DNA of 30,962 bases from a virus: the UHGV virus genome UHGV-1558343, one strand, 5' to 3'. The stretch's first letter is position 1. Every line of letters begins with the position of its first letter. Below are positions 7,428 through 15,506 of this stretch, one piece after another. Below the pieces are notes generated by a model. That model was not told the DNA's origin, made no database searches, and was given only the letters and a program-made list of their open reading frames with translations. Position numbers and translations under genes: made by a program.

Positions 7428-7503
7428 TGGAGAATCCGAAGGGACTCGAACCCTTATAAACCTGTTTTGCAGACAGGTACATATCCATTTCTGTCACGGA
7501 TTC
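7428..7503 (-). tRNA. tRNA-Cys(GCA)
   Basis: cloverleaf folded by hand; T-loop TTCGAGT, anticodon loop CUGCAAA, 7-bp acceptor stem, CCA encoded. Confidence 0.8.
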
Positions 7504-7507
7504 AAAT

Positions 7508-7600
7508 TGGAGGAAGATACCAGACTTGAACTGGTACACCGATTTCTCAGCTACTGGCAGTTTAGCAAACTGCTCCCTTACCTTTTAGGGTTAATCTTCC
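7508..7600 (-). tRNA. tRNA-Ser(GCU), class II
   Basis: 93 nt; perfect 7-bp acceptor stem GGAAGAT/ATCTTCC; anticodon loop UUGCUAA; long variable arm; CCA encoded. Confidence 0.8.
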
Positions 7601-7601
7601 A

Positions 7602-8336
7602 TTATTTCTGTAATGCGCTCTTCATTTCTGGTGTTGCAATAGTGTCAATCACACCAGTTTTACAAGCATCATCAAACCAGTCTGGTAAGATACCTGCTAA
7701 GAACCCATTGATATTCGTTTTAAGGTACTCTGCAATAAGGGCAGCTTCTTCTTCAATCATCTGCACAACTTCATCTGCATAAGCTGTAATCTTCGAAATA
7801 CCTTCATTAATCTTACTAACAGCTTGGTTAGCTAAATCAGAAATAGTATCAAGACCTTTGTCAATAGCATCTTGTAAGTCACTTAATACATCATTAACAC
7901 CATCTAGTGCGCTGTTAATCGTATCCATAGCTTTTTGACCATACTCTGTAGCAACACCCATAATACCACTAAATGGTGTACAGCCAACTTGCTCCCCTGC
8001 TGCACCCATAACATTAGAATAGCCTTTTGCTACCTGCATACGTGAGGAAAACTCATCAATGGACTTTTGACCATAATCTGTCAGTGTCTTAGTAGTTGAT
8101 GTAGTGCTTGTCAGACTCGTTGTAAAGCTGTTAAGCAGAACTGTTGTAAGTCCAGCAGCAACAAGTTTATCTTTTATTGTAGGGTCTGTTACAGAACTAA
8201 TAGAGCTTACAAGTGATGTAGAGGCAGATACGGTTCCACCGAGAACTGCTGCACCAGTAATAAGTGGGTTAGAAAACCCTTTACCGGTTTTTAAGAGATT
8301 AAAAATCTCCTTACCTTGTTCTGTCATCTCTTTCAT
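7602..8336 (-). CDS. hypothetical Ser/Thr-rich protein embedded in tRNA array
   Basis: ORF 7602..8399 in track; first about 20 codons overlap tRNA-Phe on the same strand, so an internal Met start is likelier; exact start uncertain. Confidence 0.45.
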   Translation of the reverse strand: MKEMTEQGKEIFNLLKTGKGFSNPLITGAAVLGGTVSASTSLVSSISSVTDPTIKDKLVAAGLTTVLLNSFTTSLTSTTSTTKTLTDYGQKSIDEFSSRMQVAKGYSNVMGAAGEQVGCTPFSGIMGVATEYGQKAMDTINSALDGVNDVLSDLQDAIDKGLDTISDLANQAVSKINEGISKITAYADEVVQMIEEEAALIAEYLKTNINGFLAGILPDWFDDACKTGVIDTIATPEMKSALQK

Positions 8337-8352
8337 TAAGCACCTTTGAAAT

Positions 8353-8429
8353 TGGTAGTCCAGTGGGATTTGAACCCTCTTCTCATGTTTTTCAGACACG
8401 CGCTTTAACCATATAAGCTACTTGGACTA
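8353..8429 (-). tRNA. tRNA-Phe(GAA)
   Basis: T-loop TTCAAAT, anticodon loop CUGAAAA; acceptor pairing TAGTCCA/TGGACTA; exact 3' end ambiguous. Confidence 0.7.
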
Positions 8430-8434
8430 TAAAT

Positions 8435-8510
8435 TGGGGTGACCTACGGGATTTGAACCCGTATAGACCATGTTCACAGCATGGGTCATTACCGTTTATG
8501 ATAAGGCCAC
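8435..8510 (-). tRNA. tRNA-His(GUG)
   Basis: anticodon stem CCATG/CATGG, loop CUGUGAA; T-loop TTCAAAT; CCA encoded. Confidence 0.8.
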
Positions 8511-8541
8511 ATTTAAGGACTCTCGTAAGAACCCTTAGAAG

Positions 8542-8617
8542 TGGCAGCGGCATAAGGATTTGAACCTTAATAGGACAGCTTCAGAGACTGTTGCATTGCC
8601 AGTTATGCTATACCGCT
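8542..8617 (-). tRNA. tRNA-Gln(CUG)
   Basis: D-stem GCAT/ATGC, anticodon loop CUCUGAA, T-loop TTCAAAT, CCA encoded. Confidence 0.7.
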
Positions 8618-8622
8618 AAATT

Positions 8623-8701
8623 TGGTACTCCATATCGGATTCGAACCGATACATAACACAGATTTTAAGTCTGGCCTCTCTGCCAATTGGAGTAATGGAG
8701 C
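8623..8701 (-). tRNA. tRNA with anticodon UAA (Leu-type anticodon; short variable arm)
   Basis: T-arm ATCGG/TTCGAAT/CCGAT; anticodon loop CUUAAAA; acceptor GCTCCAT/ATGGAGT; A73; no long variable arm. Confidence 0.6.
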
Positions 8702-8703
8702 AT

Positions 8704-8779
8704 TGGCGGGGGATGTTGGAATTGAACCAACTTCTTCGATTTCAAAGACCGAGGTTTTAACCTTGTAAACTAATCCCCT
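8704..8779 (-). tRNA. tRNA-Gln(UUG)
   Basis: anticodon stem TCGGT/ATCGA, loop CUUUGAA; T-loop TTCAATT; CCA encoded; 1:72 mismatch. Confidence 0.65.
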
Positions 8780-8787
8780 TTAAATCT

Positions 8788-9345
8788 TTACTTTCTCAGT
8801 GGATGAATAAAGAATGCCAACATAACTCTTTCCCTTGAGAATGCTCTTTCTTCTGGGACAACACTTTTAAGTTTCCATCCAACATAAATTCTCCAGTAAA
8901 ACTGTTTACCAAAGACTTTAATTGATGGGATAAAAGCGAATAACCCCCAAGCATTACTGTTCCACATTAGGAGATAACCAGTCTGATTATCTTCAGGGTT
9001 AGAGCTTACGTTGATATTACCTTTCCACTTAGTAACATCTTTTACATCTCTTCCTAATACATGGTAAGAGAAGTTATAAGCTTTGTTTCTCCAGAGCCAT
9101 CCAACTCTCTGCATGTAGACACCCAGCTTACCAATCTTTCTAATCTTAGCCCATCTTTTAACGTGGCCTTCATCACCATCAATTGGGTTGTCATAGGTCT
9201 CCATCCATCTGAATCCAAAAGGTAGATGTCCTTTCTTCTCACTGTAGAATGGAACTACGAAAGGTGCTAAGATAACTGCTAGGGTTGCTGCAAATGGTTC
9301 TAACAAAGCTAAGAAAATCCATGAAACATATTTTAAGTATCTCAT
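8788..9345 (-). CDS. hypothetical protein with N-terminal hydrophobic segment, embedded in tRNA array
   Basis: 185 aa ORF with ATG and AAGAGG SD; N-terminus WIFLALLEPFAATLAVILAPFVVPF is hydrophobic; Trp-rich. Confidence 0.5.
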   Translation of the reverse strand: MRYLKYVSWIFLALLEPFAATLAVILAPFVVPFYSEKKGHLPFGFRWMETYDNPIDGDEGHVKRWAKIRKIGKLGVYMQRVGWLWRNKAYNFSYHVLGRDVKDVTKWKGNINVSSNPEDNQTGYLLMWNSNAWGLFAFIPSIKVFGKQFYWRIYVGWKLKSVVPEERAFSRERVMLAFFIHPLRK

Positions 9346-9365
9346 CTAAATAGCCTCTTAAAAAA

Positions 9366-9441
9366 TTGGTGCAGGATAAGGGATTCGAACCCCTATTAAC
9401 AGCTTCGTAGACTGTTGCTCTATCCATTTGAACTAATCCTG
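9366..9441 (-). tRNA. tRNA-Arg(ACG)
   Basis: acceptor GCAGGAT/ATCCTGC; anticodon loop CUACGAA; T-loop TTCGAAT; CCA encoded. Confidence 0.8.
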
Positions 9442-9540
9442 CTTACCTACGAGAACACCATACAGTTTTTCACAAACTTTGTTTTTACGTCTGTTTAGAT
9501 ATGAAGCTCTAAACTTTTTTGCGATGGACTTATTACTCAT
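9432..9540 (-). CDS. possible small basic protein (35 aa)
   Basis: ATG at 9538-9540 with AGGAG SD; translates MSNKSIAKKFRASYLNRRKNKVCEKLYGVLVGKQD; 3' end overlaps tRNA-Arg by about 10 nt. Confidence 0.3.
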
Positions 9541-9556
9541 AGTGCTCTCCTAAAAT

Positions 9557-9634
9557 TGGTGTTCCAAGACGGATTCGAACCGTCACTAATACAAGGTTTG
9601 AGCTTGCATCCTCTGCCAATTGGGATACTGGAAC
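9557..9634 (-). tRNA. tRNA with anticodon CAA (Leu-type anticodon; short variable arm)
   Basis: acceptor GTTCCAG/TTGGAAC; anticodon stem GCAAG/CTTGT, loop CUCAAAC; T-loop TTCGAAT; A73; CCA encoded. Confidence 0.6.
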
Positions 9635-9635
9635 A

Positions 9636-9710
9636 TGGTACTCACTAAAGGACTTGAACCTTTTTCTTCATCTTGTAAGGGTGATGTTTTACCATATAAA
9701 CTAAGCGAGT
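9636..9710 (-). tRNA. tRNA-Val(UAC), tentative
   Basis: acceptor ACTCGCT/AGTGAGT; anticodon loop CUUACAA with one C-A mismatch in the stem; T-loop TTCAAGT. Confidence 0.6.
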
Positions 9711-9805
9711 GTGAAAGAGGTCTGAAGTTGTGCCGCTAACTCAACTCCGTGGAATTTGTTACGGTCTTCAGTTGACACCAGCGGTCTTTCACTTGACCTC
9801 TGAAT

Positions 9806-9882
9806 TGGTGCTGCTCACAGGACTCGAACCTGCATTTCCATCCTTACAAGGGATGTGTAATAGCCAATTATACGAAAGCAGC
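9806..9882 (-). tRNA. tRNA-Thr(UGU)
   Basis: anticodon stem CATCC/GGATG perfect, loop CUUGUAA; T-loop TTCGAGT; CCA encoded. Confidence 0.8.
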
Positions 9883-9888
9883 ATTATT

Positions 9889-9963
9889 TGGAACATCCAG
9901 AGGGAATCGAACCCTCAACCTCAGTTTGGAAGACTGTAATTTTCCCGTTTAAACTATGGATGC
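9889..9963 (-). tRNA. tRNA-Gly(UCC)
   Basis: anticodon loop CUUCCAA; T-arm GAGGG/TTCGATT/CCCTC; CCA encoded. Confidence 0.75.
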
Positions 9964-9969
9964 ACTAAT

Positions 9970-10045
9970 TGGTGGAGAAGCAGGGAATTGAACCCTGTAC
10001 TTAAGTTTGCAAAACTTATGTTTTAACCATGTAAACTACATCCCC
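9970..10045 (-). tRNA. tRNA-Ala(UGC)
   Basis: D-stem GTTT/AAAC; anticodon stem TAAGT/ACTTA, loop UUUGCAA; T-loop TTCAATT; CCA encoded. Confidence 0.75.
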
Positions 10046-10051
10046 AATGTT

Positions 10052-10127
10052 TGGTACAGGTGGAGGGAATTGAACCCGTCGTCTTACTGATTAAGAGTCA
10101 GCCGCATAACCATTTTGCTACACCTGC
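10052..10127 (-). tRNA. tRNA-Lys(CUU), tentative
   Basis: anticodon stem GCTGA/TCAGT (one GU), loop CUCUUAA; T-loop TTCAATT; CCA encoded. Confidence 0.6.
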
Positions 10128-10134
10128 ATTAATT

Positions 10135-10212
10135 TGGTAGGAGACAAGGGATTCGAACCCTCAAACATCTCGTTCTAAGCGAGATAGGTTTACCAATTAC
10201 CGTCAATCTCCC
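10135..10212 (-). tRNA. tRNA with anticodon UAG (Leu-type anticodon; short variable arm)
   Basis: anticodon stem TCTCG/CGAGA perfect, loop CUUAGAA; T-loop TTCGAAT; A73; CCA encoded; variable region only 5 nt. Confidence 0.6.
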
Positions 10213-10293
10213 ATTAAATCTTTTTAGAGAACTTCTAAGAACCTAAGCAACAAGGTTCCACAACAAGCTGTAATAACCTTAGAAGCCCTCTAA

Positions 10294-10313
10294 AAAGACC
10301 TAAAAAGGTCTTT
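10294..10313. other. AT-rich hairpin inside a 258-nt tRNA-free spacer
   Basis: AAAGACC-TAAAAA-GGTCTTT palindrome; spacer 10213-10470 has no T-loop motif but several other inverted repeats. Confidence 0.4.
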
Positions 10314-10470
10314 GCATAGTCTTGTTTAATCCGGTGACTAGAACCTTTGGAGAGCTTGATACTATCTCTTCTCCGTGACACCTACTAGGTGCTTTATAGT
10401 CGTGCCGTGTACGCCAATACACGAGTAAAAACCGAGCTTGTTAGACGAGCGCGGGAATTAAATCTTATTA

Positions 10471-10560
10471 GGCGGTAAGTAAAGGAGTCGAACCCTCACC
10501 GTATCTCTACAGTGGCAACTGTTTTCAAGACAGTTTGGCTACCATTAGCCGCTACCTACC
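10471..10560 (-). tRNA. tRNA-Ser(UGA), class II
   Basis: 90 nt; anticodon stem ACTGT/ACAGT, loop CUUGAAA; long variable arm; acceptor GGTAGGT/ACTTACC. Confidence 0.75.
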
Positions 10561-10573
10561 CCTAATAAGACTT

Positions 10574-10656
10574 TGGCATGGGACGGAGGAGTTGAACCCC
10601 TTTGAAACGGTGTTGGAAGCCGTTGCTCATGCCTTAGAGTCTTAACATCGTCCCAT
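10574..10656 (-). tRNA. tRNA-Trp(CCA) with enlarged D region
   Basis: perfect acceptor ATGGGAC/GTCCCAT; anticodon loop UUCCAAC; T-loop TTCAACT; about 27 nt between anticodon stem and acceptor where about 20 are expected. Confidence 0.6.
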
Positions 10657-10799
10657 ACTATAATTCGAAGCTTACTGTATTATCTCAACACTGTAAAGCC
10701 CCTTCTCAGATTATTTACATGTTCTGGAAAACATGAGATACAGACCACCTCCCTACAGGAAGACCCGCTAAGGTCGTCTAAGTAATCTGCTAACTAAAT

Positions 10800-10881
10800 T
10801 GGTCGAGGCGGCAGGACTCGAACCCGCATACTCCACTTACTCGGTTAACGGCTGTTTAGAAGACAGCTGAGATACGCCCCG
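10800..10881 (-). tRNA. atypical tRNA-like gene, anticodon UCU (Arg-type); no recognisable D-arm
   Basis: T-arm GCGGG/TTCGAGT/CCTGC; acceptor CGGGGCG/CGCCTCG; anticodon arm GCTGT-CUUCUAA-ACAGC; only 7 nt between acceptor and anticodon stem; 23 nt between anticodon stem and T-stem. Confidence 0.5.
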
Positions 10882-11128
10882 TAATTATCTTTAAAGACTC
10901 TCTTAGAAAGCCCTTAAAGATGCCCACCTTATTAATCATACCGTGGGCTAGTACGCCAAATTCTTTGATGAGGGATTGGAAGACCTCACTGGTGTTTAGC
11001 CTATCAAGCTACTGCCAGAAAAACATTGTCGTTTGCATTTATTTTAAATTTGCAAAATAGACGCTACGCAACGAAAACTAAGGTTACTATAAAGTAGTCA
11101 CATCTCAATGTCAACAACTTTTTGAAAT

Positions 11129-11204
11129 TGGTACTGTGAGAAGGATTTGAACCTTCTGCCTTTCGGTTATCAGCCGAATGCACATCCATATGTGCTTTCA
11201 CAGC
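11129..11204 (-). tRNA. tRNA-Ile(GAU)
   Basis: anticodon stem TTCGG/CCGAA perfect, loop CUGAUAA; T-loop TTCAAAT; CCA encoded. Confidence 0.8.
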
Positions 11205-11683
11205 ATTGTTACCCCTTCGTGTACTTCTCTGTGGCAATTTGCACAAAGCAAGACACACTTATCAACTTCAGACTGCATTGTAGCCAGTGAGTAGTGTTTT
11301 TTACTTACTGTGAAGTCTTTTGTCTTAGGGTCTAAGTGGTGAAACTCTAGAGCCTTTGTGCACCTATTGTAACCACAAATTGAACAACAACCACCCTTGT
11401 AATCAACTAAAGCCTTCTTCAGTCTGTCACGAGACTTTTTAACGTGCAGTGATTTGGCTTTGCTTTTTTCATGATGGGTCTTATGTTTTTTCATGACTCC
11501 ACCTGCAATACATTCGTCACAGTATTTTCTCGCTTTTGGCGTTACCTTTCCGCATGAATGGCAAGAGCCTTCCTGACTTCTCTTTGGGTGTTTCTTGTTG
11601 TTCACTTTTGCAGAACAAGAGCGTGAGCAAAATTTTCCACCTTTAACGGCTTCATTTCCGCAACCTTTGTTAGCACAAATCAT
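11198..11683 (-). CDS. HNH homing endonuclease
   Basis: multiple CxxC pairs plus FHHLDP and CANCHREVH motifs near C-terminus; ATG at 11681-11683 with AGGTGA SD; lies between tRNA genes. Confidence 0.85.
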   Translation of the reverse strand: MICANKGCGNEAVKGGKFCSRSCSAKVNNKKHPKRSQEGSCHSCGKVTPKARKYCDECIAGGVMKKHKTHHEKSKAKSLHVKKSRDRLKKALVDYKGGCCSICGYNRCTKALEFHHLDPKTKDFTVSKKHYSLATMQSEVDKCVLLCANCHREVHEGVTML

Positions 11684-11700
11684 AAGTATCACCTATAAAT

Positions 11701-11777
11701 TGGAGGTTCAGATGGGAATCGAACCCACATTCATAGGGCTTATGAGACCCTTGCATTACCTTATCTGCGACTGAACC
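11701..11777 (-). tRNA. tRNA-Met(CAU) (elongator Met, fMet or Ile-lysidine not distinguishable)
   Basis: acceptor GGTTCAG/CTGAACC perfect; anticodon loop CUCAUAA; T-loop TTCGATT; CCA encoded. Confidence 0.75.
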
Positions 11778-11781
11778 ATAT

Positions 11782-11857
11782 TGGTAGAAGTGGAGGGATT
11801 CGAACCCATCGCCTGTCAGATTAAAAGTCTGCCGCATCACCATTCTGCTACACTTCC
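11782..11857 (-). tRNA. tRNA-Lys(UUU)
   Basis: anticodon loop CUUUUAA; T-arm ATGGG/TTCGAAT/CCCTC; CCA encoded. Confidence 0.7.
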
Positions 11858-11863
11858 ATTAAA

Positions 11864-12001
11864 TTATCTTTGTAGATAAGCTACCCAGACTTGCTTAAGG
11901 TCTGTAGCGATGTGTCTTTTCGGGTTAAATCTAGAATCTACCCTTCCACCTTTGTGGTCGCATACTCACAGGTAAGCTTAATAACTTATCTACAAAGATA
12001 A
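11864..12001. repeat. perfect 17-bp inverted repeat flanking about 100 nt of hairpin-rich spacer
   Basis: TTATCTTTGTAGATAAG at 11864-11880 and its exact reverse complement CTTATCTACAAAGATAA at 11985-12001; each arm is itself palindromic. Confidence 0.7.
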
Positions 12002-12052
12002 TTACCAGACCGTTGTTTATCATCTTAAGTGCTACCATTACACCAACTCGAC

Positions 12053-12101
12053 ATCTGCCGAGTGAAGGAATCGAACCTTCGCCTTTTCTTTACCGGAGAA
12101 A
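12053..12101 (-). pseudogene. tRNA 3' fragment (T-arm plus anticodon arm, anticodon GGU Thr-type); 5' half missing
   Basis: T-arm GAAGG/TTCGATT/CCTTC and anticodon arm TTTCT-CCGGUAA-AGAAA present; no sequence downstream pairs with acceptor 3' strand ACTCGGC; no CCA. Confidence 0.45.
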
Positions 12102-12116
12102 TAGATTGTTTAAGTT

Positions 12117-12143
12117 TTGCTGTAAACGGTCTTCTGTAAATTT
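12117..12143. repeat. tRNA-spacer repeat copy 1 (TTGCTGTAAACGGTCTTCTGTAAATTT)
   Basis: 27-bp element identical to copy at 13048-13074; sits where the 5' half of the tRNA fragment would be. Confidence 0.75.
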
Positions 12144-12202
12144 GTTGAGCCAGACCAAGTTTTAAATTTTTCAAAATTAAATTGGCTTGAAATTTTAAGT
12201 AA

Positions 12203-12227
12203 CTTGCTGTATTTGGTCTTCTGCTCC
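12203..12227. repeat. tRNA-spacer repeat, degenerate copy
   Basis: CTTGCTGTATTTGGTCTTCTGCTCC shares the TTGCTGTA..GGTCTTCTG core. Confidence 0.55.
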
Positions 12228-12284
12228 TTTAAAGGATACTCGTAAGAACCCTTTAATGGAGGGGCTAAATAGCCCTCTCAAAAT

Positions 12285-12360
12285 TGGCGAGGTATGCGAG
12301 AATCGAACTCGCGGCTCAGGAGAGACAATCCCGTATTTTACCCGTCTAAACTAATACCCC
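12285..12360 (-). tRNA. tRNA-Asp(GUC)
   Basis: anticodon loop UUGUCUC; T-arm GCGAG/TTCGATT/CTCGC; acceptor GGGGTAT/ATACCTC; CCA encoded. Confidence 0.7.
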
Positions 12361-12364
12361 AAAT

Positions 12365-12793
12365 TCATGTACCATTTCTTAGATACTTCTTCCTACGTCT
12401 TTCTGGACTATAGTTTCTTCTACTCTCAGCATTCTTAGCCAGCCTACACTCATCGCATCTACAGCCTTTAAAATAGCTATACGCAGTTCCGTGTTTAATT
12501 GTTTTATGTTTTCTTTCACTTATCTGTGCTGGTCTTGCTGCTTTCATGTTACATTTAAGATGACTATAAGAAATATTATCTAGTGAAAAGAAAAGCTCTT
12601 TTGCATTCTCACTATGTCTCCACGGAATCTTATGCTCGATAGAGAAATCATCCCTAGTCATTTCTTTTCCGCACTGAAAACATCTATTTTGATTTGTCTT
12701 ACATATAAAATCGAATAGCAAATCTTTTACTAGTCTGTTTTGTGCAGTTCCCAAACTCATACCAAGTTGTGATTTGTATACTTCATCTCTCAT
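12365..12793 (-). CDS. HNH homing endonuclease
   Basis: CFQCG ... EHKIPW ... HLKCN motif set; C-terminal Cys/Arg-rich segment GCRCDECR; ORF track start overlaps tRNA-Tyr so internal ATG at 12791-12793 is proposed. Confidence 0.8.
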   Translation of the reverse strand: MRDEVYKSQLGMSLGTAQNRLVKDLLFDFICKTNQNRCFQCGKEMTRDDFSIEHKIPWRHSENAKELFFSLDNISYSHLKCNMKAARPAQISERKHKTIKHGTAYSYFKGCRCDECRLAKNAESRRNYSPERRRKKYLRNGT

Positions 12794-12815
12794 AACTAAG
12801 TATCTCGCTAAGTGT

Positions 12816-12903
12816 TGGTGTGCCGTGTAGGAGTCGAACCTACCGAGTCTCAATGACAAGGGATTTACAGTCCCCACCGCTACCATCTACGGGATAACGA
12901 CAC
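12816..12903 (-). tRNA. tRNA-Tyr(GUA), class II
   Basis: 88 nt; anticodon loop CUGUAAA; long variable region; acceptor GTGTCGT/ACGGCAC; CCA encoded. Confidence 0.75.
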
Positions 12904-12915
12904 ATTTCAATTTTG

Positions 12916-12989
12916 CGGTTAGTCAGGGATTCGAACCCTGTGCCATTCGCTTAACAGGCGACCGCACATACCTTATGTGCTTCCTAACC
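12916..12989 (-). tRNA. tRNA-Asn(GUU)
   Basis: D-arm GCAC-9nt-GTGC; anticodon loop CUGUUAA; T-loop TTCGAAT; CCA not encoded. Confidence 0.75.
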
Positions 12990-13047
12990 ATGTTTAGTAT
13001 TACCAGACCGTATCTTTCAATTTTTTCCGCTAAAAATTTAATAAATA

Positions 13048-13074
13048 TTGCTGTAAACGGTCTTCTGTAAATTT
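13048..13074. repeat. tRNA-spacer repeat copy 2 (TTGCTGTAAACGGTCTTCTGTAAATTT)
   Basis: exact 27-bp duplicate of 12117-12143; abuts the 3' end of the tRNA at 13074. Confidence 0.75.
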
Positions 13075-13150
13075 GGAGGCGGGTGCAGGAGTCGAACCTG
13101 CCGATACCATGCTAATGAGACATGTGAGACGCCCTTTCTCTATACCCGCA
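13074..13150 (-). tRNA. tRNA with anticodon CAU (Met or Ile-lysidine), tentative
   Basis: anticodon loop CUCAUUA; D-arm GAGA-7nt-TCTC; acceptor with 1:72 mismatch; CCA encoded. Confidence 0.6.
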
Positions 13151-13213
13151 ATTCTTAATGACCAGACCAAATCTCTTCTTTGTCCGATTTACCTTCAGAT
13201 GAATAAGATTAAG

Positions 13214-13240
13214 TTTGCTGTAATTGGTCTTCTGTCAAAA
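13214..13240. repeat. tRNA-spacer repeat, degenerate copy
   Basis: TTTGCTGTAATTGGTCTTCTGTCAAAA directly beside the 3' end of tRNA-Glu. Confidence 0.6.
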
Positions 13241-13241
13241 C

Positions 13242-13319
13242 TGGCGTTCCAGAAGGGATTTGAACCCTCAGATATCCACTTTGAAAGAGTGGTGACTATA
13301 CCATTTTGTCTACTGGAAC
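13242..13319 (-). tRNA. tRNA-Glu(UUC)
   Basis: perfect acceptor GTTCCAG/CTGGAAC; anticodon stem CCACT/AGTGG perfect, loop CUUUCAA; CCA encoded. Confidence 0.8.
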
Positions 13320-13326
13320 ATTAATT

Positions 13327-13403
13327 TGGTCTCTGTTGGAGGACTTGAACCTCCGGCCTTACCGCCCCAAACGGAACGCTCTACCAAGCTGAGCTAAACA
13401 GAG
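13327..13403 (-). tRNA. tRNA-Pro(UGG)
   Basis: classic D-arm GCTCAGCTTGGTAGAGC; anticodon loop UUUGGGG; T-loop TTCAAGT; perfect acceptor; CCA encoded. Confidence 0.8.
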
Positions 13404-13527
13404 ATAAACTTTTCAAACTCTATGTAACCACTTTAACATTATTTTTTAGTGGTTGTCAAGAACTTTTTTAAAATATTTTTCAGTATCTTAGAAAAGCTCT
13501 CATTTCGTTTCTATGTAGAACATATTA

Positions 13528-13557
13528 AAGGGTATCAAACACATTGTCAATACCCTT
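13528..13557 (-). terminator. hairpin just downstream of the vWA gene stop
   Basis: AAGGGTAT - 14 nt loop - ATACCCTT inverted repeat, 12 nt past the stop codon at 13569. Confidence 0.5.
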
Positions 13558-13568
13558 TTTAAAACTTT

Positions 13569-14984
13569 TTACCAGATGTAACGGTCAATCATTACTGCTT
13601 TGAGCATTACGCTGATTGGGTCAAACTTCTCACCACCAAGCAGAGCTTTTAAAGTGGCTGGAGAGAAACCAGATACCATTGCTACACCGTTATCCTTAAC
13701 AGATACTTCGCAAGTTCCATTACGGTTTGCTAAGTACCAAAATACTAGTTGTGGCATATCATATCCAGCTTTTTTGTACTTACTCTGAATTGCTTCAAAG
13801 TTTGTACGACCGTTAGCCCCATCAACCTGATTGAACTCCATATCGGAGAAGATGATAAGCTTACTTGGCATATCTTTCTGAGTCAAGTTGTTTCTTTTAC
13901 CTGTCTCAAGAATACGGTCAAAAGCCACTTGTAAGTTAGTTGAGCCATATTCAACGTTTCGCATCACCTGACGATGACGGTTTCGTAAATCACCACTCAG
14001 TTCGATGAAGTGAGGGTTTGTTGAATAAACCATCAACTCATTCTTAAAGCAACCTGTATTGCGTTCTGCTACATACAAGGCAAGTGATACACCAATATCA
14101 AGGGCGGTGATTGAGCCAAGATTCACCCAAGACATTGAGCTTGAAACATCAGTCATACACAAGATGTTTTCACCTTCTGCCATCCAGTTTGGTAGTGCTT
14201 TCCACTGCTCATTGGCAACATCTGCATTACCATGCTTAACAGATTTAATCACATCGTATGGGTAAACAGCACCAGCATTAATCTTAGCCTCACCCTTTGA
14301 TAAGGACTCAATGTAAGCTTTGTAGCGTTCTCCATCTTTACGGTTAAACAGTTTTTGGTAACGTGCAGCAGCAAGTGAAGGAATCTTACTGTAGTCAATC
14401 TTACCAAACTCATTAGCAGAGATTTTTTGCTCAACTGTATCAGATAGTGCAGACAACAGTGTGCGGTACTCTTTCTCGCTTAAGTTTGCAAACTTACAGA
14501 AACGTTTTACAAACTGTTTGTGGCGTGGTTTTACTCGTGGCAACCACTTAGCTGCTAAACCTGCTGTTGCAGGGTCTAGTAATGCTGCTTCTAAATGTTT
14601 GAAGGCATCTGTCTCGAAACGAGTACCTACGAAGATTTTGAAGTCATCAAAACGACCAAGTTCTGCAATCTTATCCATAATGCGAAGAACCTGTGTAGGC
14701 TCTAAAACTTTATCTTCAATCGCTTGAAGTAAAACAGTTCTGAAAGCTTTACGCTCACCCATACCTTCTCGTACATCTCGCATGTGAAGCAAAATACGAA
14801 CTGCAACATCAACATCCTCACGCAAAGCTTTGTAGAACAAGTCTGGTAAGATTTCTACATTGCTACGGCTGGAACCAGCAGCTTTGTAAAAGTCCACAAG
14901 AGCAGACATTGATGAAGTATGGTTTACAGCACCATTTTCAGTTCGACCTGCATGAAGGTGCGCATGTTTAAATAATTCGCTCAT
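13569..14984 (-). CDS. von Willebrand factor A (vWA) domain protein with MIDAS motif, DUF2828-like
   Basis: 471 aa; DVSSS (DxSxS) MIDAS motif in C-terminal half; N-terminal GRTENGA motif; largely helical N-terminal region; family assignment from memory. Confidence 0.65.
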   Translation of the reverse strand: MSELFKHAHLHAGRTENGAVNHTSSMSALVDFYKAAGSSRSNVEILPDLFYKALREDVDVAVRILLHMRDVREGMGERKAFRTVLLQAIEDKVLEPTQVLRIMDKIAELGRFDDFKIFVGTRFETDAFKHLEAALLDPATAGLAAKWLPRVKPRHKQFVKRFCKFANLSEKEYRTLLSALSDTVEQKISANEFGKIDYSKIPSLAAARYQKLFNRKDGERYKAYIESLSKGEAKINAGAVYPYDVIKSVKHGNADVANEQWKALPNWMAEGENILCMTDVSSSMSWVNLGSITALDIGVSLALYVAERNTGCFKNELMVYSTNPHFIELSGDLRNRHRQVMRNVEYGSTNLQVAFDRILETGKRNNLTQKDMPSKLIIFSDMEFNQVDGANGRTNFEAIQSKYKKAGYDMPQLVFWYLANRNGTCEVSVKDNGVAMVSGFSPATLKALLGGEKFDPISVMLKAVMIDRYIW

Positions 14985-15066
14985 ATTTTACTCTCTTCTC
15001 TCATTTTGTTTGTTGATGTGACAGACTTTAGAGCAACTTTGTAGAGTCTGTCAACACCTTTTAAAA

Positions 15067-15438
15067 TTATTTTTTGAGGGTTGCAACAGCAGAGAACGTT
15101 GGTTTGTTATCTGTCTGAGACTGACCCCCGTTATCAGGAGTCTTCTTAGTGTCTGCTGCAATTGCTTTCATCTCACCTGCTGAGTGGGTCATGATAGTTT
15201 TACCAGCTTCCATCATCGCCTTCAGGTTTACATCATCAGTCGTCAAACCGAACTCTGCAAGCTTAGCAGCGTCCCTTGTAACAATCGCTTCAAACAACTT
15301 TGCAGCAAACTCAGCAGAATTATCAATGGTCAGTTGAGCTTTTACGAGTGAGCTTTTGTTACGAGAGCCTTTTGGTCTTCCAGATGGGTTTCCAGATTGG
15401 CCTTTTTTAAACTGGCCTTTGTTTGTTCTGTTTTTCAT
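15067..15438 (-). CDS. hypothetical protein with N-terminal GNPSGRPKG basic motif (possible DNA-binding)
   Basis: 123 aa; N-terminus KGQFKKGQSGNPSGRPKGSRN; C-terminus Ala/Lys-rich. Confidence 0.5.
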   Translation of the reverse strand: MKNRTNKGQFKKGQSGNPSGRPKGSRNKSSLVKAQLTIDNSAEFAAKLFEAIVTRDAAKLAEFGLTTDDVNLKAMMEAGKTIMTHSAGEMKAIAADTKKTPDNGGQSQTDNKPTFSAVATLKK

Positions 15439-15486
15439 TGGTATGCCTCTTATAAGACCTCTTAAAAGGCTTTTAAGATAAAAGAT

Positions 15487-15506
15487 AGATATCCAGAAAG
15501 ATATCT
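15487..15506. promoter_or_regulatory. operator-like palindrome in divergent intergenic region
   Basis: AGATATC-CAGAAA-GATATCT, 7-bp arms with 6-bp spacer, between divergent minus and plus gene blocks. Confidence 0.35.

What the first reader, a model, noticed from the sequence alone, without database searches (positions are those of the whole stretch)
13569..14984. vWA/MIDAS protein (DUF2828-like) encoded immediately beside the tRNA array
The 471-aa protein has a DxSxS MIDAS motif and a helical N-terminal region. Ro60/TROVE proteins have a similar helical-repeat plus vWA layout and bind tRNA-like Y RNAs, so adjacency to the tRNA array is suggestive of RNA binding or RNA quality control. This link is speculative and rests only on architecture and position.
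Basis: inference. Interest (0 to 1): 0.55.

Follow-up and report, generated by a model that had tools for sequence, protein, structure and literature searches.

The report
Phage Ro60-like protein with Y-RNA-like partners
The gene encodes a ring-shaped Ro60-like protein, already reported to help a near-identical phage overcome a bacterial defence system, and I find that it is accompanied here and in many unrelated phages by previously unannotated small RNAs, one of which mimics a tRNA, that are its likely binding partners.

Summary

It is 98% identical to Bas63 gp130. A 2024 preprint already describes gp130 as Ro60-like, as lying upstream of the tRNAs, and as a counter to the Ppl defence system.

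What I add:
- The tRNA array holds four unannotated RNA elements with a shared covarying bulged helix followed by UACAGCAA.
- One of them (12002-12139) encloses a circularly permuted tRNA-like domain (T arm, closed acceptor hairpin, D arm), as in bacterial YrlA Y RNAs.
- This RNA family flanks DUF2828 genes on the same strand in unrelated phages and bacterial assemblies. 48/80 genome loci have one within 700 nt, against 4/80 on the opposite strand. Cross-phage covariation is strong.
- The elements are absent from a relative that lacks the gene.

RNA binding and the mechanism against Ppl remain untested.

The parts
13569..14984 (-). Gene for the 471-aa Ro60-like protein (DUF2828 + DUF7788/vWA), the ortholog of Bas63 gp130. 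Helical ring domain is about res 1-265, vWA with MIDAS (D279,S281,S283,T349,D381) about res 270-450, and a C-terminal helix at 456-464.
15025..15054 (-). Sigma-70-like promoter candidate (TTGACA-18-TAAAGT) in the 82-nt gap upstream of the gene. This is a consensus match only.
13404..13568 (-). Gap between the gene and tRNA-Pro. It holds two promoter-like sites (13522-13550 and 13430-13459), each overlapped by an inverted repeat (e.g. AAAGGGTAT...ATACCCTTT, 13527-13558). No Y-RNA-like element was found in this gap.
13159..13237 (-). Short stem+UACAGCAA RNA element 'a'. Outer helix UGAC/GUCA, internal loop, inner helix AGACCAA/UUGGUCU. It lies between tRNA-Glu and tRNA-Met.
13000..13070 (-). Short stem+UACAGCAA RNA element 'b'. 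Helices UUAC/GUAA and AGACCGU/ACGGUCU. It lies between tRNA-Met and tRNA-Asn. Model R1 scores it 55.6 bits.
12147..12226 (-). Short stem+AUACAGCAA RNA element 'd'. Helices GAGC/GCUC and AGACCAA/UUGGUCU.
12002..12139 (-). Long element 'c', the candidate YrlA-like Y RNA. It has the same basal bulged helix and UUUACAGCAA motif. These enclose a hairpin UUUCU-CCGGUAA-AGAAA, a T arm GAAGG-UUCGAUU-CCUUC, a closed acceptor-like hairpin ACUCGGC-AGAU-GUCGAGU and a D arm GUGU-AAUGGUA-GCAC, which together form a circularly permuted tRNA-like domain.
7428..13403 (-). Array of 25 tRNA genes, interrupted by HNH-endonuclease ORFs, co-oriented with the gene. The RNA elements above lie in its first 1.4 kb.
15067..15438 (-). 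123-aa upstream gene. It is a conserved neighbour only within the Ounavirinae group. It is retained in phiEa21-4, where the Ro60-like gene and the RNA elements are absent. It is probably not part of the system.

Best explanation
The ORF encodes a compact, divergent member of the Ro60 structural family. An alpha-helical repeat ring is closed by a vWA domain with an intact metal-binding MIDAS site. It is the ortholog of Bas63 gp130.

I propose that it works as a ribonucleoprotein, like Ro60/Rsr with Y RNAs. In this model it binds small phage-encoded RNAs transcribed from the same strand within the tRNA array. Their common recognition module is a terminal two-part helix followed by the unpaired motif U(A/U)CAGCAA. 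One of these RNAs (12002-12139) additionally carries a permuted tRNA-like domain, as in bacterial YrlA. In known systems that domain recruits tRNA-recognising enzymes or exoribonucleases.

The biological output, taken from the literature on the 98%-identical protein, is counter-defence: it neutralises the Ppl (ATPase+PHP) system.

Shown here: the fold, the orthology, the conserved MIDAS site, the RNA structures with covariation, and their family-wide linkage to the gene. Shown by others: the anti-Ppl phenotype. Inferred: physical binding of the protein to these RNAs, and how the RNP (or the protein alone) blocks Ppl.
For: Fold:
- The AF2 model has pLDDT 90.2 and pTM 0.90.
- The Foldseek top 10 hits are all Ro60 family, full length.
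- 12/59 homologs weakly match Pfam vWA_Ro60.
- The profile search touches 1yvp at the MIDAS region.

Orthology:
- 460/471 residues are identical to bas63_0130, with the same synteny.
- In the preprint, deletion of gene 130 gives tiny plaques on a ppl host and is complemented. gp130 transferred to T7 restores T7 plaquing on the ppl host (PMC11482910).

RNA elements:
- Four paralogous elements are conserved at syntenic sites in Felixouna-, Moogle- and Suspvirus.
- All variation keeps pairing, including a double change UUAC/GUAA->UUGC/GCAA and several G.U transitions.
- For element c, RNAalifold on 12 orthologs gives outer stem + T arm + closed acceptor hairpin + D arm, with 0 of 276 cells broken and three acceptor-stem variants ACUCG/CGAGU, ACACG/CGUGU and ACCCUUC/GAAGGGU.

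Family-wide linkage:
- The descriptor for the permuted module gives 33 hits, all on the gene strand, 0 in shuffles and 0 in T5, phiEa21-4 or the other 50 kb of Bas63.
- Rfam YrlA hits the same sites in other loci at E 4e-5 to 0.8.
- Model R1, built only from the Felixounavirus group, finds full-length matches beside DUF2828 genes in unrelated phages (64.6 to 31 bits; 49/51 on the gene strand).
- On the cross-phage alignment, 18/23 pairs covary and 98.5% of cells pair, against 36-46% when slid.
- The stem+motif scan gives 166 vs 41 hits (gene vs opposite strand), and 24/36 vs 6/36 clusters with an element within 700 nt.
- This is replicated in genome assemblies: 130 vs 23 hits, and 48/80 vs 4/80 loci.

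Natural control and precedents:
- phiEa21-4 keeps the flanking gene and the tRNA array but lacks the protein gene and all RNA elements.
- No protein neighbour is conserved, so RNAs are the only recurrent partners.
- Precedents are Thermus phage Ro60 binding two adjacent Y-like RNAs and host PNPase (PMC12135203), and YrlA RNAs beside Ro60 orthologs in 22 phages (PMC4201824).
Against: - No experiment shows RNA binding by this protein or expression of the RNA elements.
- gp130 alone, from a plasmid or inserted in T7, rescues T7 on the ppl host without any Bas63 RNA. The phage RNAs are therefore not required for that activity, unless host RNAs substitute.
- The Pfam TROVE model never matches.
- The Rfam YrlA model does not score element c even in a 191-nt search, and the YrlA GNCGAA motif is absent.
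- The folding energy of element c alone is unremarkable (z -1.3).
- Within the Felixounavirus group, covariation traces to about three lineages.
- The cross-phage alignment was fitted to the model.
- The negative-control set is small (50 tRNAs).
- The anti-Ppl data come from a preprint, and Ppl's own mechanism is unknown.
Confidence: 0.72

Rival explanations
1. The protein acts without RNA. Its vWA/MIDAS face binds an acidic residue of Ppl or of a host factor and inhibits it directly. The nearby RNA elements are unrelated to the protein's function.
Against: This does not explain why an RNA family with a conserved motif flanks the gene on the same strand in most lineages, or why it is lost together with the gene in phiEa21-4. 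The whole Ro60 ring, not only the vWA domain, is conserved. The two readings are not exclusive, because Ro60 uses both surfaces.
Confidence: 0.15
2. The protein is a chaperone or quality-control factor for the phage's own tRNAs. It would bind pre-tRNAs or damaged tRNAs from the adjacent array, for example to protect them from host anticodon nucleases, rather than dedicated Y-like RNAs.
For: The gene is tightly linked to tRNA/tmRNA arrays on the same strand. Ro60 binds misfolded RNAs through its central cavity (PDB 2i91 and 9nf8 among the hits).
Against: About a third of clusters have no tRNA within 10 kb but still carry stem+motif RNAs next to the gene, for example L012, L013, L018, L023 and L024 at 27-34 nt from the stop codon. 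phiEa21-4 maintains 27 tRNAs without the protein. T7 has no tRNAs, yet benefits from gp130.
Confidence: 0.1
3. The repeated elements are not trans-acting RNAs. They would be cis elements such as phage promoters, RNA-processing sites or terminators for the array, or small mobile inverted-repeat elements, so their linkage to the gene is only positional.
For: The 5' module overlaps weak -35-like hexamers (TTGACA/TTTACA). The elements lie between tRNAs, where processing signals are expected. In Clostridia-type loci they lie just upstream of the gene, which would fit a leader.
Against: G.U-tolerant and compensatory changes indicate an RNA helix rather than a DNA motif. There is no U-tract. The elements occur both upstream and downstream of the gene and in tandem copies. 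A subset carries a complete permuted tRNA-like domain that Rfam's YrlA model recognises. They are absent from the T5 and phiEa21-4 arrays.
Confidence: 0.08

Closest known systems
Bas63 (Escherichia phage JohannRWettstein) gp130, anti-Ppl counter-defence protein (PhageMaP preprint, PMC11482910)
   Same: 98% identical (460/471). Same position: 372-nt gene, then this gene, then tRNA-Pro/Glu/Met. The preprint reports it as structurally Ro60-like and directly upstream of the tRNA stretch, and suggests Y RNAs.
   Different: Nothing material at the protein level. The preprint guessed that some annotated tRNAs might be Y RNAs. The candidates found here are unannotated elements between the tRNAs, and in Bas63 they are overlapped by the spurious opposite-strand CDSs bas63_0137/0138.
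Ro60/Rsr-Y RNA ribonucleoproteins (Xenopus/human Ro60, Deinococcus and Salmonella Rsr with Yrn1/YrlA/YrlB, Thermus phage phiLo Ro60 with Yrl1/Yrl2)
   Same: Ring of helical repeats closed by a vWA domain with MIDAS. Partner-RNA candidates are encoded next to the gene on the same strand. They have a terminal bulged helix, and in one copy a tRNA-like domain with the YrlA permutation.
   Different: About 70 residues shorter, at 11-16% identity. No Pfam TROVE match. The RNA motif is U(A/U)CAGCAA instead of GNCGAA/GGUCCGA, and Rfam YrlA does not reach its gathering score anywhere. No rtcBA or PNPase linkage. The only known phenotype is anti-defence.
Mycobacteriophage 'Ro-like RNA binding protein' (e.g. 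Itos gp54) with the YrlA-like RNAs of Chen et al. 2014
   Same: Same Pfam architecture, DUF7788+DUF2828, at 30-34% identity. Three stem+ACAGCAA elements lie 41-235 nt after the stop codon. One has the permuted tRNA-like domain and is hit by both Rfam YrlA and model R1.
   Different: No tRNA array at that locus. I could not verify which of Chen et al.'s 22 phages carry DUF2828-type rather than TROVE-type proteins, because the supplements are not held.
Dictyostelium Class I RNAs (Rfam RF01414)
   Same: Same design as the short elements: about 60 nt, a 6-7-bp terminal stem conserved in structure but not sequence, a conserved 5' G and 3' CUG(U), and an unpaired motif CCUUACAGCAA next to the 5' stem strand. 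Its universally conserved positions are also conserved in the phage elements.
   Different: Rfam scores are only ~13-20 bits against a gathering score of 41.5. The known binder is the RRM protein Rnp1A. The RNAs are reported as restricted to dictyostelids. I could not determine whether dictyostelids encode a DUF2828 protein.

Membership tests
Ro60/TROVE (Rsr) protein family | Closed ring of alpha-helical (HEAT-like) repeats with a vWA domain inserted before a last helix that returns to the ring | tested here: met
Ro60/TROVE (Rsr) protein family | MIDAS metal site in the vWA domain (DxSxS ... T ... D) | tested here: met
   D279, S281, S283, T349 and D381 are invariant in 59 homologs. Spacing is like phiLo D322/S324/T391/D416.
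Ro60/TROVE (Rsr) protein family | Match to the Pfam TROVE domain model (PF05731) | tested here: not met
   No TROVE hit at E<=1 for the query or at E<=10 for any of 59 homologs. There are only weak vWA_Ro60 hits in 12/59, best E 1.7e-4. The PDB profile search gives 1yvp at E=1.
Ro60/TROVE (Rsr) protein family | Adjacent same-strand Y RNA gene(s) with a terminal helix, at least one with a tRNA-like domain | tested here: met
   Elements a-d in the window. Element c has the permuted tRNA-like domain with covariation. Family-wide linkage is shown. This is computational only.
Ro60/TROVE (Rsr) protein family | Direct binding of Y RNA and misfolded RNA; tethering of an exoribonuclease (PNPase) | not testable with these tools
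   Needs EMSA/CLIP and pull-downs. No PNPase or RtcB gene is linked.
Pfam DUF2828 + DUF7788 / PHROG 850 | Matches above the curated thresholds | tested here: met
   DUF7788 scores 145.6 bits (cut-off 27.1) and DUF2828 scores 104.1 bits (cut-off 29). phrog_850 matches at E 8e-183 over its full length.
Bas63 gp130-type anti-Ppl counter-defence | Orthology to gp130 | tested here: met
   98% identity and identical synteny.
Bas63 gp130-type anti-Ppl counter-defence | Relief of Ppl-mediated restriction | not testable with these tools
   Reported for gp130 in PMC11482910. Not tested for this phage.
YrlA RNA (Rfam RF02553), for element c | Architecture: terminal stem, T arm, closed acceptor-like hairpin, D arm | tested here: met
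   MFE and RNAalifold structures and descriptor hit.
YrlA RNA (Rfam RF02553), for element c | Score at or above Rfam's gathering threshold (69 bits); GNCGAA(N)G motif in the 5' strand | tested here: not met
   No YrlA hit at E<=10 in 8.7-kb and 191-nt searches. The motif is absent. Related elements in other loci reach 21.7-39.2 bits.
Dictyostelium Class I RNA (Rfam RF01414), for elements a, b, d | Gathering score 41.5 bits | tested here: not met
   19.7-20.5 bits (E 4.7-7.7) for a and b, and 12.8 bits for c. The resemblance is in design and motif only.
MoxR-associated vWA co-chaperones | Neighbouring AAA+ MoxR ATPase gene | tested here: not met
   No conserved protein neighbour across 38 clusters.

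The most novel reading that the evidence does not exclude
DUF2828 proteins and 'terminal stem + U(A/U)CAGCAA' RNAs form a second, very widespread Ro60/Y-RNA-like ribonucleoprotein lineage that extends beyond phages. On this reading the abundant Dictyostelium Class I RNAs have the same size, the same terminal stem with a conserved 5' G and 3' CUGU, and the same unpaired CCUUACAGCAA motif. They have no known origin and are thought unique to dictyostelids. They would be the eukaryotic members of this RNA family and the ligands of a eukaryotic DUF2828 protein.
Probability: 0.12. Interest if true: 0.85.

Novelty: new member of a known kind. Interest (0 to 1): 0.6.

Why it matters
The protein itself is already described: Bas63 gp130 is reported as Ro60-like and anti-Ppl. 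What was missing is any concrete RNA partner, and the preprint could only guess that some tRNAs might be Y RNAs.

This analysis names specific, testable RNAs in the window and in Bas63. It also shows that the same RNA family accompanies DUF2828 genes in hundreds of phages of Gram-negative, Gram-positive and actinobacterial hosts. That makes 'DUF2828' a likely Ro60-type RNP and gives it a recognisable RNA signature for annotation. It also makes the mechanism of a counter-defence protein directly testable, by asking whether the RNP or the bare protein blocks Ppl. Finally, it explains part of the unannotated space inside phage tRNA arrays, where current genome records place spurious small ORFs.

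Tried and rejected
1. A single-sequence and a profile search of PDB sequences gave no significant hit. Ro60 appeared only at E=1 in the MIDAS region, so the sequence evidence was insufficient.
2. The 165-nt gap right after the gene, which was my first guess for a Y RNA, contains promoter-like sites with inverted repeats and one near-CGAA motif, but no conserved Y-like structure.
3. Rfam at gathering and at E<=10 found no Y_RNA or YrlA in the window.
4. The idea that annotated or degenerate tRNAs are the Y RNAs was not pursued. An example is the tRNA-like 10803-10882, which is called tRNA-Arg in Bas63. The permuted element gave a better-supported candidate.
5. Eight tRNA-less loci scanned with Rfam gave no YrlA. 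The custom stem+motif scan later found short elements there.
6. The neighbour-gene analysis found no conserved protein partner: no RtcB, RNA ligase, PNPase or MoxR.
7. I looked for PhageMaP data on bas63_0137/0138, which overlap elements c and e. The text has nothing and no supplements are held.
8. The Chen et al. supplements (YrlA alignment and phage list) are not held.
9. The afdb50 fold search, meant to find eukaryotic and Dictyostelium DUF2828 proteins, was unavailable. Avesson 2011 is not held. Literature searches for DUF2828, PF11443 and UCP015417 returned only incidental plant and tardigrade mentions.
10. Reading the repeats as promoters or MITE-like inverted repeats was rejected, mainly because of G.U-tolerant covariation.
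Full report
**1. Observation**

The ORF at 13569-14984 (- strand, ATG start, 471 aa) is real. ARAGORN and Rfam find 25 and 23 tRNA genes respectively, all on the - strand between 7428 and 13403. The first of them, tRNA-Pro, lies 165 nt after the stop codon.

The window is a Felixounavirus genome. Bases 13000-15500 are 97% identical to phages REP8 and LF110P2, and 252 phage records match.

The protein matches Pfam DUF7788 (residues 275-455, E 1.7e-42) and DUF2828 (E 1e-29). It also matches PHROG 850, whose label 'RNA-binding protein' is what many GenBank records carry. The DxSxS motif is D279-S281-S283. Together with T349 and D381 it is invariant in 59 homologs that share 40-88% identity with the query.

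**2. Fold**

Sequence searches against the PDB do not reach Ro60 significantly. A single-sequence search found nothing, and a profile search found 1yvp at E=1, only over the MIDAS region.

An AlphaFold2 model built from the 59-sequence alignment is confident (pLDDT 90.2, pTM 0.90). It shows about 15 helices, then an alpha/beta domain, then a final helix.

- Foldseek against the PDB puts ten Ro60-family chains first: Xenopus and human Ro60, Thermus phage phiLo Ro60 and Deinococcus Rsr. All are aligned over 512-559 columns, with E 3e-8 to 8e-7. The next hits are isolated vWA domains with E>3e-3.
- At the sequence level, 12 of 59 homologs weakly match Pfam 'vWA_Ro60' (best E 1.7e-4), but none matches TROVE.

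The protein is therefore a structural member of the Ro60 family, but it sits outside the curated TROVE sequence family.

**3. What is already known**

The protein is 98% identical (460/471) to bas63_0130 of phage Bas63 and has the same gene order. The PhageMaP preprint (PMC11482910) reports four things about it:

- Deleting gene 130 gives very small plaques on a host carrying the Ppl defence system, and complementation restores them.
- gp130 supplied from a plasmid or inserted into T7 restores T7 plaquing on that host.
- gp130 is structurally similar to Ro60 and sits directly upstream of the tRNAs.
[quoted passage not shown]'

Ppl's own mechanism is still described as unknown in 2026 (PMC13152194).

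Homologs occur in 710 phage records. These include Vibrio and Aeromonas jumbo phages, Campylobacter phages, Listeria P100-like phages, Staphylococcus, Enterococcus and Bacillus myoviruses, and mycobacteriophages. The mycobacteriophage members are annotated 'Ro-like RNA binding protein'. One of them, Itos gp54, has the same DUF7788+DUF2828 architecture.

**4. Linkage to tRNA arrays**

In 80 viral-contig loci (34 clusters at 70% identity), all 402 tRNA/tmRNA genes within the flanks are on the gene's strand. 11 of 34 clusters have a tRNA within 1 kb, and 22 of 34 have one within the <=10 kb flanks. In 80 loci from bacterial genome assemblies, 137 of 139 tRNA/tmRNA genes are on the gene's strand.

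No protein-coding neighbour is conserved beyond single lineages.

**5. Y-RNA-like elements in the window**

Rfam finds no Y_RNA or YrlA in the window, even at E<=10. The 165-nt gap after the gene holds two promoter-like sites overlapped by inverted repeats.

Repeat analysis and direct reading showed four copies of one element in the non-tRNA gaps of the first 1.4 kb of the array, all on the - strand:

| Element | Coordinates |
|---|---|
| a | 13159-13237 |
| b | 13000-13070 |
| d | 12147-12226 |
| c | 12002-12139 |

Each element has, in order:

- an outer 4-bp helix (UGAC/GUCA, UUAC/GUAA or GAGC/GCUC)
- an asymmetric internal loop
- an inner 7-8-bp helix (AGACCGU/ACGGUCU or AGACCAA/UUGGUCU)
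- immediately 3' of the 5' strand, the unpaired motif (U)UACAGCAA

All four are conserved at syntenic positions in Felixounavirus, Mooglevirus and Suspvirus. Every difference preserves pairing. SUSP2 has a double change in copy b (UUAC/GUAA to UUGC/GCAA), and several transitions give G.U pairs. This argues for an RNA helix rather than a DNA motif.

**6. Element c is tRNA-like**

Inside its basal helix, element c contains four parts in this order:

- a hairpin UUUCU-CCGGUAA-AGAAA
- a T arm GAAGG-UUCGAUU-CCUUC
- a closed acceptor-like hairpin
- a D arm GUGU-AAUGGUA-GCAC

This is a circularly permuted tRNA-like domain, the layout that defines bacterial YrlA Y RNAs (Rfam consensus; PMC4201824).

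The element is present in 246 of 252 Felixounavirus-group genomes and is almost never annotated. In an alignment of 12 orthologs from three genera, RNAalifold independently predicts the outer stem, T arm, acceptor-like hairpin and D arm. None of 276 pair cells is broken. The acceptor-like stem has three unrelated but always complementary sequences (ACUCG/CGAGU, ACACG/CGUGU, ACCCUUC/GAAGGGU) with unrelated loops.

In the controls, 100% of cells are paired against 38-47% when partners are slid. The covariation score is 0.187 against <=0.084, and 0 of 500 shuffles reach it. Two limits apply. The changes trace to about three lineages, and the folding energy alone is not exceptional (z -1.3).

**7. 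The RNA family accompanies the gene elsewhere**

*Permuted-module descriptor.* A structural descriptor (T arm, then a hairpin, then a D arm) run on 1.5 Mb of loci gave 33 hits, all on the gene's strand, and none in shuffles. Four of the hits are tandem-tRNA junctions. The rest lie near DUF2828 genes in unrelated phages: 59 and 177 nt after the stop codon in L044, 77 nt upstream in L025, and also in Itos.

*Rfam YrlA.* Rfam's YrlA model hits the same coordinates at sub-threshold but partly significant scores: L025 39.2 bits (E 4e-5), L073 38.9 bits (E 5e-5), L079 36.7 bits (E 2e-4) and Itos 21.7 bits.

*Covariance model R1.* A model built only from the 12 Felixounavirus-group sequences finds full-length matches in unrelated loci: L026 64.6 bits, L073 53.2, Itos 47.9, L020 45.8, L022 44.2, L027 43.9 and L044 43.4. 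Of the 51 hits listed at E<=5, 49 are on the gene's strand. There is nothing in phiEa21-4, and only a wrong-strand hit at E=1.1 in T5.

*Cross-phage alignment.* The basal helices are all different in sequence but always paired, and each is followed by UACAGCAA or UUCAGCAA. 18 of 23 pairs show double changes. 98.5% of cells are paired against 36-46% when slid. The covariation score is 1.08 against <=0.19. This alignment is model-fitted.

*Stem+motif scan.* A simple scan gives 166 hits on the gene's strand, 41 on the opposite strand and 22-29 per strand in shuffles. It reveals short forms of 55-65 nt lying 24-35 nt after the stop codon in loci that have no tRNAs at all. 24 of 36 clusters have a same-strand element within 700 nt, against 6 of 36 on the opposite strand. 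The 51 non-redundant elements split 25 short and 26 long. The consensus is (A)AGG-N4-(N)U[A/U]CAGCAA ... N4-CCU-G(U/A)U.

*Replication.* The result holds in an independent set of 80 bacterial-assembly loci: 130 hits against 23, and 48/80 loci against 4/80.

**8. Controls**

Erwinia phage phiEa21-4 is an Ounavirinae relative. It keeps the homolog of the upstream 123-aa gene (63% identity), followed directly by a 27-tRNA array. It has no DUF2828 homolog anywhere in its genome (best tblastn E 0.26), no stem+motif copies above background, and no permuted module.

T5 has 23 tRNAs and several annotated stable RNAs of unknown function. It has no permuted module and only background stem+motif counts. 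The control set is small, so these results are supportive rather than decisive.

**9. Mechanism**

The best-supported reading is a Ro60-type RNP. In this reading the protein binds the adjacent stem+UACAGCAA RNAs through the conserved helix and motif. The long form presents a tRNA-like domain, which in known systems engages tRNA-recognising enzymes or tethers exoribonucleases (PMC4201824, PMC12135203).

How this counters Ppl is not known. Because gp130 alone works in T7, there are three possibilities: the RNAs are dispensable for that activity, host RNAs can substitute, or the RNAs serve another role. The invariant MIDAS site could mediate a direct protein contact. I rank the RNA-free inhibitor, the tRNA quality-control reading and the cis-element reading as rivals with lower support.

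**10. Comparison and novelty**

The gene is already known as the gp130 ortholog. Phage Ro60-Y RNA systems are also known, from phiLo and from mycobacteriophages.

Three things appear to be new within the searchable literature:

- specific Y-like RNAs identified in Felixounaviruses
- a conserved UACAGCAA-type recognition module shared by short and tRNA-like long forms
- its general linkage to DUF2828 genes

I therefore file the system as a new member of a known kind. The design of the short elements closely parallels Dictyostelium Class I RNAs. I could not test whether dictyostelids encode a DUF2828 protein, so this stays a low-probability, high-interest lead.

Noticed in passing
window 11862-12003 (- strand): A very stable structured element lies directly after element c. 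A long terminal stem of ~25-29 bp encloses a three-way junction, with dG -48.7 kcal/mol and z -6.8 against shuffles. It is present in Felixounavirus but not in Mooglevirus or Suspvirus. In Bas63 it is overlapped by the small opposite-strand CDS bas63_0138. Its function is unknown.
   Followed up: partly
window elements a, b, c, and the short elements in L012, L013, L018, L023 and others: The short stem+UUACAGCAA RNAs resemble Dictyostelium Class I RNAs (RF01414). Both are ~60 nt with a terminal stem of variable sequence, a conserved 5' G and 3' CUG(U), and an unpaired CCUUACAGCAA motif. Rfam scores are weak (13-20 bits against a gathering score of 41.5).
   Followed up: partly
window 10803-10882 (- strand): A degenerate tRNA-like sequence that ARAGORN does not call here and that scores only 23 bits with Rfam's tRNA-Sec model. 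The syntenic position is annotated tRNA-Arg(TCT) in Bas63, Moogle and Sf16, and 'tRNA-OTHER' in REP8.
   Followed up: no
window 11198-11692 and 12365-12886 (- strand): Two HNH-endonuclease-like ORFs lie inside the tRNA array. The second separates tRNA-Tyr from tRNA-Asp, which are only 5 nt apart in Bas63, so it is a strain-specific homing-endonuclease insertion.
   Followed up: no
window 10208-10307 (- strand): A hairpin between tRNA-Leu(TAG) and tRNA-Ser(TGA) gives the strongest non-tRNA Rfam hit in the region (MIR473 model, 32.7 bits, E 6e-4). This is presumably a stable stem-loop and not a microRNA.
   Followed up: no
L027, L032, L034, L039, L054, L056: Phage-encoded tmRNA genes lie 3-7 kb from the DUF2828 gene on the same strand in several unrelated loci. 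The gene therefore tends to sit in a general 'stable RNA' module and not only next to tRNAs.
   Followed up: no
L079:3231-3307, L080:4374-4450, L032:20038-20110, L084:14760-14833: Suppressor tRNAs (anticodon TTA, or CTA which ARAGORN calls 'Pyl') lie close to the DUF2828 gene. This suggests stop-codon-recoding phages among the carriers.
   Followed up: no
L097 (phage T5) 30284-33949: T5's tRNA region carries eight annotated 'stable RNAs with unknown functions', some described as tRNA-like. None matches the permuted-module descriptor or model R1, and T5 lacks DUF2828. Non-tRNA RNAs in phage tRNA arrays are therefore heterogeneous.
   Followed up: partly
L003 (Bas63) 10749-10901 and 10913-11023: The annotated hypothetical CDSs bas63_0137 and bas63_0138, on the strand opposite to the array, coincide with RNA elements c and e. 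They are probably spurious gene calls over structured-RNA genes. Similar small ORFs are annotated in other Felixounavirus records.
   Followed up: partly
L025:15696-15922: A group I intron (Rfam 71.5 bits, above the gathering score) lies about 4 kb downstream of the DUF2828 gene in an unrelated viral contig.
   Followed up: no
PMC11482910, Discussion: [quoted passage not shown] This looks like an internal inconsistency in the source.
   Followed up: no
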